From Shigella phage sb2, in sequence record PQ666540: DNA of 64,000 bases. One strand, given 5' to 3'. The translations under genes were made by a program, and so were the position numbers. Below, piece after piece: positions 41,227 to 41,541 of this stretch. The notes below the pieces were generated by a model. It saw only the letters and a program-made list of their open reading frames with translations, made no database searches and was not told the DNA's origin. The stretch's first letter is position 1. Each line of letters starts with the position of its first letter.

Positions 41227-41541
41227 AGCCTTGCGGCAACCTTGTCGGGGTTCCACCTGCTAAGGCAAGTGTTTGTACGAAACGCCGGGATTCGAACCCG
41301 GTTATTAAGCAGTTGACGCTACTCAATATTTTTAAAAGGCCATATCTCGACCATATCCGAACGTTCCGTCAAAAACGCTACTCGGCTTACGGCAAAGATA
41401 TTTCCTCGAATCGATAATTCGGTGCGCCGTTTCTGCTGTGATGTAAGAGGGCATCAACAAATCATAAAGATTTATTAACACAATTCCTTACCCAGGGAAC
41501 ATCAGTCCGACGACTTACCGGTAGCGACCCGGTTTCTTGTT

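What the first reader, a model, noticed from the sequence alone, without database searches (positions are those of the whole stretch)
41262..41541. About 280 nt of structured non-coding sequence with a T-arm-like element after tRNA-Arg
Between tRNA-Arg and the terminator at ~41203-41226 there is no plausible ORF. The segment contains a tRNA-like T-arm (CCGGG-UUCGAAU-CCCGG at ~41283-41300) and a repeated GAGUAGCGU motif, but I could not fold a canonical cloverleaf. It may correspond to T4-type small stable RNAs (species 1/2 class), a degenerate tRNA, or something else.
Basis: seen in the sequence. Interest (0 to 1): 0.4.

Follow-up and report, generated by a model that had tools for sequence, protein, structure and literature searches.

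The report
T4 small stable RNAs rnaD and rnaC
The 280-base stretch after tRNA-Arg holds this phage's copies of two small stable RNAs known from phage T4 since the 1970s (species 2/rnaD and species 1/rnaC), so it is a known feature, but their function is still unknown and comparison across phages shows that species 1 is a tRNA-shaped molecule whose anticodon-like loop is base-paired to another loop.

Summary
The window is a T4-like phage (Tequatrovirus). On the minus strand a 10-tRNA cluster ends with tRNA-Arg. It is followed by orthologues of T4 species 2 RNA (rnaD, 41540..41420) and species 1 RNA (rnaC, 41413..41274), then a trailer hairpin and an intrinsic terminator (41225..41202). The interval is about 96% identical to T4 record X03016, where both RNAs are annotated. 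Rfam has no family for either, and no tRNA finder calls a tRNA here.

New here is a covariation-supported fold for species 1, built from 30 distinct homologues from nine named genera plus Klebsiella phages. It has:
- a 7-bp acceptor stem, discriminator U and an NCA tail;
- a T arm abutting the acceptor;
- a 3-bp D-like stem carrying a roughly 60-nt inserted arm;
- a 10-bp anticodon-like hairpin whose 6-nt loop (CGUCAA) is the exact complement of the inserted arm's loop (UUGACG). The two loops change together in other phages.

Species 2 is a separate structured RNA. Each RNA has been lost independently in different genera. The papers I could read, up to 2025, still call the function unknown. 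My best guess is a non-decoding tRNA mimic, held with low confidence. The gene is already known. The fold and its distribution are, as far as I could check, not catalogued.

The parts
41542..41617 (-). tRNA-Arg (UCU), last tRNA of the 10-gene cluster 42373..41542. Context only; its 3' CCA is 1 nt upstream of species 2.
   Evidence: ARAGORN; Rfam tRNA 68.1 bits
41420..41540 (-). Species 2 RNA (rnaD) orthologue, 121 nt. Hairpin H1 is nt 8-12/20-24 with the 7-nt loop GUCGCUA. The closing helix is nt 27-33/112-119. Inner helices lead to a variable apical hairpin. The 3' end is ...GCGCACCG (T4: ...CACCA).
   Evidence: Maps to the X03016 feature 'species 2 RNA'. In 15 distinct homologues the RNAalifold structure has 93.3% of cells paired against 31-49% in slid controls, and 10 pairs changed on both sides.
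41414..41419 (-). 6-nt spacer AAUUAU between species 2 and species 1. A comparable 6-7-nt A/U-rich spacer follows the upstream tRNA in the genera that have one there.
41274..41413 (-). Species 1 RNA (rnaC) orthologue: 137 nt plus the encoded ACA, 140 nt in all. RNA nt n = window 41414-n.
   Evidence: Two substitutions against T4. My covariance model R1 gives 154 bits, E = 3.6e-30, and a single copy in the window.
41407..41413 (-). Species 1 acceptor stem, 5' strand (nt 1-7, CGAUUCG). It pairs with nt 130-136 (41284..41278, CGUUUCG). U4.U133 and U5.U132 are mismatches.
   Evidence: A3-U134 becomes G3-C134 in 20 sequences. The stem is fully Watson-Crick in the fHe-Yen9-01 type and in PM2.
41337..41406 (-). 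D-like 3-bp stem (nt 8-10/75-77) carrying the inserted long arm: helices 13-17/68-72, 21-23/62-64, 29-33/53-57 and 37-41/48-52. G73 G74 sit just before the 3' strand of the stem.
   Evidence: Helix 37-41/48-52 is 100% paired and all 5 pairs are compensatory. The MFE fold gives the same arm. The divergent 'type B' arm folds the same way. G73:U119 becomes C:G in the Entb_45 type and G74:C120 is invariant.
41367..41372 (-). Loop 1, UUGACG (nt 42-47), at the tip of the long arm. One partner of the kissing loop.
   Evidence: It is the exact reverse complement of loop 2 and covaries with it.
41303..41328 (-). Anticodon-like hairpin: 10-bp stem (nt 86-95/102-111) with the 6-nt loop 2, CGUCAA (nt 96-101, window 41318..41313).
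   Evidence: 95% paired and 9 of 10 pairs compensatory. Same place as the 'pot. stem-loop structure' of X03016.
41285..41301 (-). T arm: 5-bp stem (nt 113-117/125-129) and the loop UUCGAAU. It abuts the acceptor 3' strand.
   Evidence: 100% paired; G-C becomes U-A at one pair in 18 sequences.
41274..41277 (-). Discriminator U137 followed by A138 C139 A140. U137, C139 and A140 are invariant. Position 138 is A, U or C, and CCA is fully encoded in the Klebsiella phages and PM2.
41226..41273 (-). 3' trailer with the hairpin CACUUGCCUUAGCAGGUG and a second small hairpin. It is kept even in phages that lack species 1.
41197..41225 (-). Intrinsic terminator (10-bp stem, 7 G-C pairs, GAAA loop, U run) ending the tRNA/stable-RNA transcription unit.
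   Evidence: X03016 'pot. terminator'

Best explanation
The interval encodes two separate small stable RNAs of the T4 tRNA operon, species 2 (rnaD) and species 1 (rnaC). They are transcribed on the minus strand as the tail of the long tRNA-cluster transcript that stops at the terminator at 41225..41202, and they are cut out of it the way tRNAs are.

Shown here:
- Identity, synteny and boundaries by homology to T4.
- A conserved fold for each RNA, supported by covariation.
- Species 1 is tRNA-shaped: a 7-bp acceptor stem stacked on a 5-bp T arm, discriminator U, an NCA tail, and a 3-bp D-like stem with a GG that covaries once with the T loop.
- The D loop of species 1 carries a roughly 60-nt inserted arm, and the 6-nt loop of that arm pairs with the 6-nt loop of the anticodon-like hairpin. 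It therefore has no free anticodon and cannot decode.
- In other genera the species 1 gene sits between two tRNA genes.

Inferred:
- The 5' end of species 1 is made by RNase P, and the 3' end by exonuclease trimming and CCA repair.
- The T loop is modified as in a tRNA.
- The loop-loop pairing is intramolecular and closes the molecule into a triangle.

Function is inferred only. Species 1 most likely works as a non-decoding tRNA mimic that occupies a protein recognising the tRNA acceptor/T-arm/elbow, either a host tRNA-targeting nuclease or a tRNA-processing factor. It would be an accessory factor that matters on some hosts only. I give that functional part about 0.25. Species 2 is an unrelated structured RNA with no convincing tRNA features and an unknown partner.
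For: Identity. 805 phage records match the interval, 679 of them over at least 80% of it, almost all Tevenvirinae. T4 record X03016.1 annotates tRNA-Arg, species 2 RNA, species 1 RNA, a stem-loop and a terminator in the same order, and all of these map onto the window. GiZh annotates rnaC there.

Structure of species 1. In 30 distinct homologues of 139-143 nt, 90.5% of cells are paired against 37-43% in slid controls; 31 of 49 pairs changed on both sides; 0 of 500 shuffles did as well. The kissing loop is 99.4% paired, with A-U to G-C in 5 sequences and C-G to U-A in 2. The single-sequence MFE fold reproduces the architecture with z = -4.2. The divergent 'type B' set, folded on its own, gives the same architecture.

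tRNA-like position. In Moon, Pet-CM3-4, Melville and COW86c the gene lies between tRNA-Met or tRNA-Trp and tRNA-Gly, with spacers of about 6-7 nt.

Structure of species 2. 93.3% of cells are paired and 10 pairs are compensatory.

Expression. RNAC and RNAD are late T4 RNAs confirmed by northern blot (PMC9697503). The primary transcript is reported to run through the tRNA cluster and end after species I (PMC2330249).

Host-dependent role. A convergent SNP in rnaD arose in three lines of a T4-like phage adapting to E. coli ECOR34 (PMC12685909).

Plausibility of a decoy. Defence systems that cut tRNA acceptor stems or CCA tails exist, for example retron Eco2 (PMC12916289).
Against: - No experiment bears on function. 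The reviews and papers I could read call it unknown.
- Both RNAs are dispensable in evolution. Dhakavirus and Gaprivervirus lack species 1, several other genera lack species 2, and AV115 has deleted both.
- The near-identity between Tequatrovirus and RB69 reflects exchange of a mosaic segment and not only constraint.
- The processing enzymes and the mature 3' end are inferred, not shown here.
- Covariation cannot tell intramolecular from intermolecular kissing.
- Loop 1 is also complementary to the 3' end of the molecule, so an alternative fold is possible.
- The tertiary G73/T-loop covariation rests on one lineage.
Confidence: 0.85

Rival explanations
1. Species 1 is a decaying tRNA pseudogene and species 2 is spacer. 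Both would be transcribed only because they lie inside the tRNA operon, and neither would have a function.
For: There are tRNA-like remnants but no decoding capacity. Both elements are lost in some genera, and one phage has a chimeric deletion. tRNA finders sometimes call a false tRNA on species 1.
Against: Length is held at 139-143 nt and the four-arm architecture is kept across nine named genera plus Klebsiella phages. Dozens of changes are compensatory, including in a long-range loop-loop pair and in an arm whose sequence has been almost completely replaced. Species 2 also covaries. Both accumulate as abundant stable RNAs.
Confidence: 0.04
2. The two RNAs are trans-acting base-pairing regulators (sRNAs) that target host or phage mRNAs through their conserved single-stranded segments.
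For: PMC9697503 calls them 'small regulatory RNAs'. Species 1 has an invariant A-rich linker (nt 81-86), and species 2 has long invariant 5' and 3' segments. An adaptive SNP arose in rnaD.
Against: The two conserved loops of species 1 change together, which fits a mutual partner and not an external target. No target is known. Neither mature RNA, as annotated in T4, includes the terminator hairpin that usually ends a base-pairing sRNA, and no Rfam sRNA family reached its gathering score. For species 2 this rival stays open.
Confidence: 0.12
3. The complementary loops act between molecules. Species 1 would form head-to-tail dimers or larger RNA-only assemblies, and the assembly would be the functional form.
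For: The two 6-nt loops are perfectly complementary and covary. The Entb_45 type also has a palindromic T loop, GCAUGC. This is my own reasoning; no data exist.
Against: The inserted arm has roughly the length needed to reach the tip of the anticodon-like arm within one molecule, which favours the intramolecular pair. This is a rough helix-length estimate made outside the tool calls and rests on no 3D model. Nothing else speaks either way.
Confidence: 0.1
4. The region is a cis-acting 3' element of the tRNA operon that protects the transcript from 3' exonucleases or guides its processing, and is not a pair of independent RNA genes.
For: In T4-type phages it is the last part of the transcript before the terminator. 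The trailer hairpin is conserved even without species 1.
Against: In Moon, Karamvirus, Gelderlandvirus and others, species 1 sits in the middle of the tRNA array, far from the 3' end. Discrete mature RNAs are detected.
Confidence: 0.05
5. The interval encodes one or more small proteins, as many GenBank records annotate.
For: Mechanical ORFs of 34-50 aa exist, and many records carry 'hypothetical protein' here.
Against: The ORFs use GTG or TTG starts and straddle the two RNAs. Their ends and frames differ between the window and T4. Homologues differ by 1-nt indels, and substitutions follow base pairs and not codons.
Confidence: 0.01

Closest known systems
Phage T4 species 1 RNA (rnaC) and species 2 RNA (rnaD)
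   Same: Orthologues. They have the same order after tRNA-Arg and the same terminator. Species 1 differs from T4 at 2 of 140 positions, one unpaired and one changing U.G to U-A. Species 2 differs at about 10 positions plus small indels.
   Different: The tRNA cluster upstream has 10 genes (with Tyr and Asn, and no segB insert) instead of T4's 8. Species 2 ends in CACCG instead of T4's CACCA.
Canonical tRNA
   Same: Species 1 has a 7-bp acceptor stem stacked on a 5-bp T stem, a UUCGAAU T loop, a discriminator base and an NCA/CCA tail. It has a short D-like stem with a GG next to it, and it occupies a tRNA slot in the gene array.
   Different: It is 140 nt long. It has a roughly 60-nt arm inserted in the D loop and a 10-bp 'anticodon' stem with a 6-nt loop that is paired to the inserted arm. 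There are tandem U.U mismatches in the acceptor stem. It fails the Rfam tRNA model and ARAGORN.
tRNA-like domain of tmRNA
   Same: Both have an acceptor stem, a T arm and a CCA end without an anticodon arm, and both are processed like a tRNA.
   Different: Species 1 has no G3.U70 alanine identity pair (it has A3-U or G3-C), no tag reading frame and none of the tmRNA pseudoknots. ARAGORN finds no tmRNA. The Rfam permuted-tmRNA hit covers only the T loop, at 10 bits.
Bacterial Y RNAs (YrlA) and viral tRNA-like structures
   Same: They are non-decoding RNAs that imitate the tRNA elbow or acceptor to engage tRNA-binding proteins. This comparison is from my own knowledge of those families.
   Different: No Rfam Y-RNA or TLS family appeared among the 10 matches up to E = 10. 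In YrlA the RNA ends lie in a separate protein-binding stem, whereas species 1 has its ends at the acceptor stem.
Loop-loop closed RNAs (purine riboswitch L2-L3; T-box specifier-anticodon pairing)
   Same: Two hairpins emerging from one junction are held together by Watson-Crick pairs between their loops. The pairing resembles a codon meeting an anticodon: GAC/GUC in the window, GAU/AUC in the fHe-Yen9-01 type and GGC/GCC in the Klebsiella phages.
   Different: This is an analogy of architecture only. There is no sequence or family relationship and no evidence for a ligand.

Membership tests
T4 species 1 RNA (rnaC) | Sequence homology to the T4 species 1 RNA over its full length | tested here: met
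   Window 41413..41277 aligns without gaps to X03016 4741-4877 with 2 substitutions.
T4 species 1 RNA (rnaC) | Position at the end of the tRNA operon, after tRNA-Arg and species 2 and before the terminator | tested here: met
T4 species 1 RNA (rnaC) | Accumulates as a discrete stable RNA of about 140 nt in infected cells | not testable with these tools
   Shown for T4 by northern blot (PMC9697503), not for this phage.
T4 species 2 RNA (rnaD) | Sequence homology to the T4 species 2 RNA and position directly after tRNA-Arg | tested here: met
   Window 41540..41420 aligns to X03016 4615-4734. The 5' 47 nt and the 3' 25 nt are nearly invariant across 15 homologues.
tRNA (Rfam RF00005 / ARAGORN) | Cloverleaf that reaches the model threshold | tested here: not met
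   There is no tRNA hit in 41262-41541 at the gathering score or at E <= 10. Only tRNA-Sec appears, at 16.6 bits against 47.
tRNA (Rfam RF00005 / ARAGORN) | Free 7-nt anticodon loop on a 5-bp stem | tested here: not met
   The stem has 10 bp and the loop 6 nt, and the loop covaries with loop 1 of the inserted arm.
tRNA (Rfam RF00005 / ARAGORN) | Acceptor stem stacked on the T arm, followed by a discriminator and CCA | tested here: met
   Stems 1-7/130-136 and 113-117/125-129 are contiguous. U137 is invariant, followed by NCA, with CCA encoded in three lineages.
tmRNA | G3.U70 pair, tag reading frame and pseudoknots | tested here: not met
   Position 3:134 is A-U or G-C. ARAGORN finds no tmRNA. 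The Rfam hit covers the T loop only.
Any curated Rfam family | Match at the family's gathering score | tested here: not met
   Nothing reaches threshold in the interval. The family appears to be absent from Rfam 15.

The most novel reading that the evidence does not exclude
Species 1 RNA is a self-masked tRNA mimic. It would be a tRNA-derived molecule whose anticodon-equivalent loop is permanently occupied by a codon-like loop on an arm inserted in the D loop, leaving only the acceptor/T-arm/elbow face exposed. T4-like phages would use it as a decoy or sponge for a host tRNA-directed factor, such as a nuclease that attacks acceptor stems or CCA tails, or a tRNA-processing enzyme. That would make it a new kind of RNA-based counter-defence, and it would explain a 50-year-old orphan RNA. 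The RNA family and its fold are not in Rfam.
Probability: 0.15. Interest if true: 0.7.

Novelty: already known. Interest (0 to 1): 0.3.

Why it matters
As a genome feature this is ordinary: it is the expected rnaD/rnaC pair of a T4-like phage. It does matter for annotation. Rfam has no model for either RNA. Many GenBank records leave the place blank, put hypothetical proteins on it, or call a false tRNA (Phe or 'OTHER') there. The structural result is useful beyond this window. Species 1 is a conserved, tRNA-shaped RNA with a covarying loop-loop pair, found in at least nine named genera of Tevenvirinae. That gives a concrete, testable model for an abundant phage RNA whose function has remained unknown since the 1970s. 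It also appears at a time when tRNA-targeting defence systems and phage counter-measures are being discovered rapidly.

Tried and rejected
1. The 8-bp 'acceptor' ACGGAACG/CGUUUCGU (nt 45-52/130-137), used by Infernal's tRNA-Sec alignment and by ARAGORN's false tRNA calls. It is 84% paired, but 386 of 500 shuffles do as well. It has A.C in the Moon-type sequences, and it conflicts with helix 37-41/48-52, which covaries perfectly. Rejected as the main fold and kept as a possible alternative pairing.
2. A hand-drawn helix 3-9/53-59. It crosses better-supported helices and shows only one-sided changes. Dropped.
3. The repeated GAGUAGCGU motif as a functional repeat. It is not conserved outside the T4 type.
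4. Ancestry from a particular tRNA. Local alignment of the 3' half against 150 distinct phage tRNAs gave only T-loop-level matches, apart from the AV115 chimera and ARAGORN's false calls. No conclusion.
5. Paralogy of species 1 and species 2. The species 1 covariance model does not hit species 2.
The 80 loci printed held no true homologue; a stricter filter over all loci then held found one (L147, not among the printed rows).
7. One IMG/VR pattern found nothing. Two others mostly returned enterobacterial T4-like contigs already held and added about seven new ones. I therefore found no members outside phages of Enterobacterales.
8. Literature. Miller 2003 (PMC150520) is not held, and the original sequence and processing papers could not be read. 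Searches for a reported function found only 'unknown'.
9. Near-identity to RB69 as proof of selection. Rejected, because the whole segment including the downstream ORF is 95% identical, which indicates mosaic exchange.

Full report
WHAT IS THERE. The window is a T4-like phage. An 8-kb piece around the finding is 97-98% identical to Shigella phages sb3 and pSs-1 and matches more than a thousand Tevenvirinae records. On the minus strand ARAGORN and Rfam find ten tRNA genes in the order Gln, Leu, Gly, Pro, Ser, Thr, Met(CAU), Tyr, Asn, Arg, from 42373 to 41542. They find nothing in the reported interval. A permissive Rfam search of 41100-41640 returns, besides tRNA-Arg and its antisense-strand echo (Plastid-ycf2, 26.3 bits against a gathering score of 65.7), only sub-threshold noise. 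The most telling hit is tRNA-Sec at 16.6 bits against a gathering score of 47, which rests on the T arm.

IDENTITY. The 366 bases from tRNA-Arg to the terminator match 805 phage records, 679 of them over at least 80% of the length, nearly all phages of Escherichia, Shigella, Yersinia, Salmonella and Enterobacter. One of them is the classic T4 record X03016.1 ('tRNA region ... RNA subcluster I and II'). It annotates, in order, tRNA-Arg, 'species 2 RNA' (120 nt), 'species 1 RNA' (137 nt), a stem-loop inside species 1, and a terminator. Phage GiZh labels the same place 'rnaC; small stable RNA; species 1 RNA'. Alignment and coordinate transfer put species 2 at window 41540..41420, species 1 at 41413..41277, the stem-loop at 41328..41303 and the terminator at 41225..41202. 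The terminator is also found by the consensus scan. Species 1 differs from T4 at two positions.

CHECK OF THE OBSERVATION. The T-arm-like element lies at 41301..41285. GAGTAGCGT occurs twice (41316-24 and 41375-83, minus strand) where 0.12 copies are expected. The mechanical ORFs in the interval are 50 aa or shorter, start with GTG or TTG, straddle the two RNAs, and have different ends in T4. Species 1 folds to -50.1 kcal/mol with z = -4.2, species 2 has z = -2.1, and the trailer plus terminator has z = -4.2.

SPECIES 1, COMPARATIVE STRUCTURE. I collected homologues from GenBank phages and from IMG/VR. That gave 30 distinct sequences from Tequatro-, Mosig-, Teguna-, Karam-, Kanagawa-, Moon-, Gelderland- and Mosugukvirus and from Klebsiella phages of the Marfa/kv_tblp5 type. 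Total length is held at 139-143 nt, although the middle of the molecule exists in two very different sequence versions. Reading the substitutions gave the following model, with RNA nt n = window 41414-n:
- Acceptor stem 1-7/130-136.
- A 3-bp stem 8-10/75-77.
- A long irregular arm made of helices 13-17/68-72, 21-23/62-64, 29-33/53-57 and 37-41/48-52, ending in the loop UUGACG (nt 42-47).
- An A-rich linker.
- A 10-bp hairpin 86-95/102-111 with the loop CGUCAA (nt 96-101).
- One unpaired base.
- T arm 113-117/125-129, abutting the acceptor 3' strand.
- Discriminator U137, then A/U/C-C-A.

Counted on the alignment, 90.5% of cells are standard pairs against 37-43% when the partners are slid. Thirty-one of 49 pairs show changes on both sides, and none of 500 shuffles reaches the observed values. 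The acceptor stem carries tandem U.U mismatches in 27 of the 30 sequences. It is fully Watson-Crick in the Yersinia phage fHe-Yen9-01 type (CGGUCCG/CGGACUG) and in Pectobacterium phage PM2 (AGGUUCG/CGAAUCU), and position 3:134 switches between A-U and G-C. The thermodynamic fold of the window sequence alone and RNAalifold on the ten 'type B' sequences alone both return the same four-arm architecture. My covariance model built from the alignment finds one copy in the window, at 41274-41413, with 154 bits.

THE LOOP-LOOP PAIR. UUGACG and CGUCAA are exact reverse complements. When one loop changes, the other follows: UUGAUG/CAUCAA in the fHe-Yen9-01 type and UUGGCG/CGCCAA in the Klebsiella phages. 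Of the six pairs, 99.4% of cells are paired and two pairs carry compensatory double changes, in 5 and 2 sequences. The pairing resembles a codon meeting an anticodon (GAC/GUC, GAU/AUC, GGC/GCC), and its sequence is free to drift as long as the two loops match. This argues that the loops are each other's partners and not probes for an outside target. Covariation cannot say whether the pair forms within one molecule or between molecules. From the helix lengths I estimate, outside the tool calls, that the inserted arm is about long enough to reach the tip of the anticodon-like arm within one molecule. I therefore favour the intramolecular pair.

tRNA LIKENESS. The contiguous acceptor and T stems, the UUCGAAU loop, the invariant discriminator and the invariant C139 A140 are tRNA features. 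CCA is fully encoded in three lineages. G73 and G74, just before the 3' strand of the 3-bp stem, stand where G18 and G19 stand in a tRNA. G74 and the T-loop C120 are invariant. In the one lineage where G73 is C (Entb_45 type), the T-loop U119 is G. This suggests a tRNA-like elbow, but it rests on a single event. In Moon, Pet-CM3-4, Melville and COW86c the gene lies between two tRNA genes (Met or Trp upstream, Gly downstream) with spacers of about 6-7 nt. In the window the same kind of 6-nt spacer separates it from species 2. It is therefore very likely cut out like a tRNA, by RNase P at the 5' end and by trimming and CCA repair at the 3' end. That step is inferred from position and shape and from what is known of T4 tRNA maturation, and was not tested. 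The T4 record ends species 1 at nt 137. My recollection is that the sequenced RNA was 140 nt long, which would fit 137 plus CCA, but I could not read the original paper. The molecule is not a tRNA in the family sense. It fails both tRNA finders here, it has a 6-nt occupied 'anticodon' loop, and where ARAGORN or GenBank do call a tRNA on homologues the 'anticodon' differs each time (UUA, GAA, CAU).

REJECTED DETAIL. The 8-bp 'acceptor' ACGGAACG/CGUUUCGU suggested by Infernal is 84% paired, but no better than shuffles, and it conflicts with a perfectly covarying helix. It exists because loop 1 is also complementary to the 3' end, CGU(A)CAA. Whether that is an alternative fold or a coincidence is open.

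SPECIES 2. Fifteen distinct homologues give a fold with five parts: a 5-bp hairpin with the invariant loop GUCGCUA (its closing pair switches between A-U and G-C); a closing helix 27-33/112-119; two inner helices; and an apical hairpin that exists in three unrelated sequence versions. In this fold 93.3% of cells are paired against 31-49% in slid controls, and ten pairs are compensatory. Its 3' end reads CACCA only in T4, and CACCG, CACAG or CACCC elsewhere, so a tRNA-like CCA end is not a conserved property. I found no convincing tRNA feature, and the species 1 model does not match it.

DISTRIBUTION. The two RNAs are independent modules. Dhakavirus (VR5, IME08) and Gaprivervirus (TH44) keep species 2 and the trailer but have a clean deletion of species 1. 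Karam-, Moon-, Kanagawa-, Gelderland- and Mosugukvirus and the Klebsiella phages keep species 1 without species 2. The near-identity of this module between the window and RB69 goes with 95% identity of the downstream ORF, against 82% and 70% upstream. It therefore reflects exchange of a mosaic segment and not only constraint.

FUNCTION. The 2010 review says the biological roles are unknown. A 2022 transcriptome study classes both as late RNAs, confirms them by northern blot, and again says the functions are unknown. A 2025 evolution study found one shared SNP, in rnaD, in three lines of a T4-like phage adapting to E. coli ECOR34. That is the only hint of a host-dependent role. My best mechanistic guess for species 1 follows from its anatomy: a tRNA-shaped RNA that cannot decode and shows only its acceptor/T-arm/elbow face is suited to occupy a tRNA-binding protein. 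Defence systems that cut acceptor stems or CCA tails are known. I hold this at about 0.25. It is an inference, not a result.

VERDICT. The added value is in three things: exact boundaries; a covariation-backed fold with a loop-loop pair for species 1 and a fold for species 2; and the observation that Rfam and many genome records lack these RNAs.

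Noticed in passing
L008 (Escherichia phage AV115, OR352945.1) 651-737: The annotated 'tRNA-Asn' is a chimera. The 5' part of a tRNA-Asn is joined inside the T loop (GGTTCGAATCC) to the 3' end of species 1 and its trailer. This is a deletion by recombination between T loops that removed most of species 1 and whatever lay between (in related phages: tRNA-Arg and species 2). The T stem and the acceptor stem no longer pair.
   Followed up: partly
homologues of window 41274-41413 in other phages (e.g. H242 KKP_3262, H169 G9062; loci scanned): Species 1 homologues are sporadically mis-annotated. GenBank records carry tRNA-Phe or tRNA-OTHER there. ARAGORN-96-nt 'tRNAs' with the anticodons UUA, GAA or CAU. 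Many records place hypothetical-protein CDSs over rnaC and rnaD.
   Followed up: partly
window 40645-40670 and 41202-41225 (minus strand); ORFs 39985-40548 and 40674-41147 (minus strand): Two nearly identical terminator hairpins (CCCCGACC-GAAA-GGUUGGGG and CCUCGACC-AAAA-GGUUGGGG). The two ORFs downstream of rnaC begin with similar peptides (MKSYAQFLNEA and MKTYAEFLTEA), so they look like a duplicated small-gene unit.
   Followed up: no
window ~41253-41270 (minus strand): The trailer hairpin CACUUGCCUUAGCAGGUG between species 1 and the terminator is conserved even in phages that have deleted species 1 (VR5, IME08, TH44). It may be a processing or stability element in its own right.
   Followed up: no
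L174 (RB69) against window 39900-42900: The rnaD-rnaC module and the ORF downstream are 95% identical between this phage and RB69. The tRNA.2 gene upstream is 82% identical and the tRNAs about 70%. RB69 also has an ORF, not a tRNA, directly upstream of species 2. This is a mosaic exchange of the module.
   Followed up: partly
window 41701-41787 (minus strand): tRNA-Tyr scores only 30.2 bits on the Rfam tRNA model (gathering score 29), far below the other nine tRNAs (60-74 bits).
   Followed up: no
window 41522-41528 (species 2 loop GUCGCUA) against 41376-41380 and 41317-41321 (UAGCG within the repeated motif): The invariant loop of the species 2 hairpin is complementary over 5 bases to the UAGCG inside both copies of the GAGUAGCGU motif of species 1. 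It may be chance and was not tested.
   Followed up: no
window 41517-41533 (plus strand): The terminator-like hit on the plus strand is only the antisense image of the species 2 hairpin H1.
   Followed up: yes
L097 (metagenome contig WNFZ01034815.1) ~5504-5631: This stray hit of the metagenome scan ends in ...GGCGGGTTCGATTCCCGTCCGCCTCCGCTAC and scores 18 bits on the species 1 model. It looks like some other tRNA-like RNA, possibly a tmRNA 3' end. It is unrelated to the finding.
   Followed up: no
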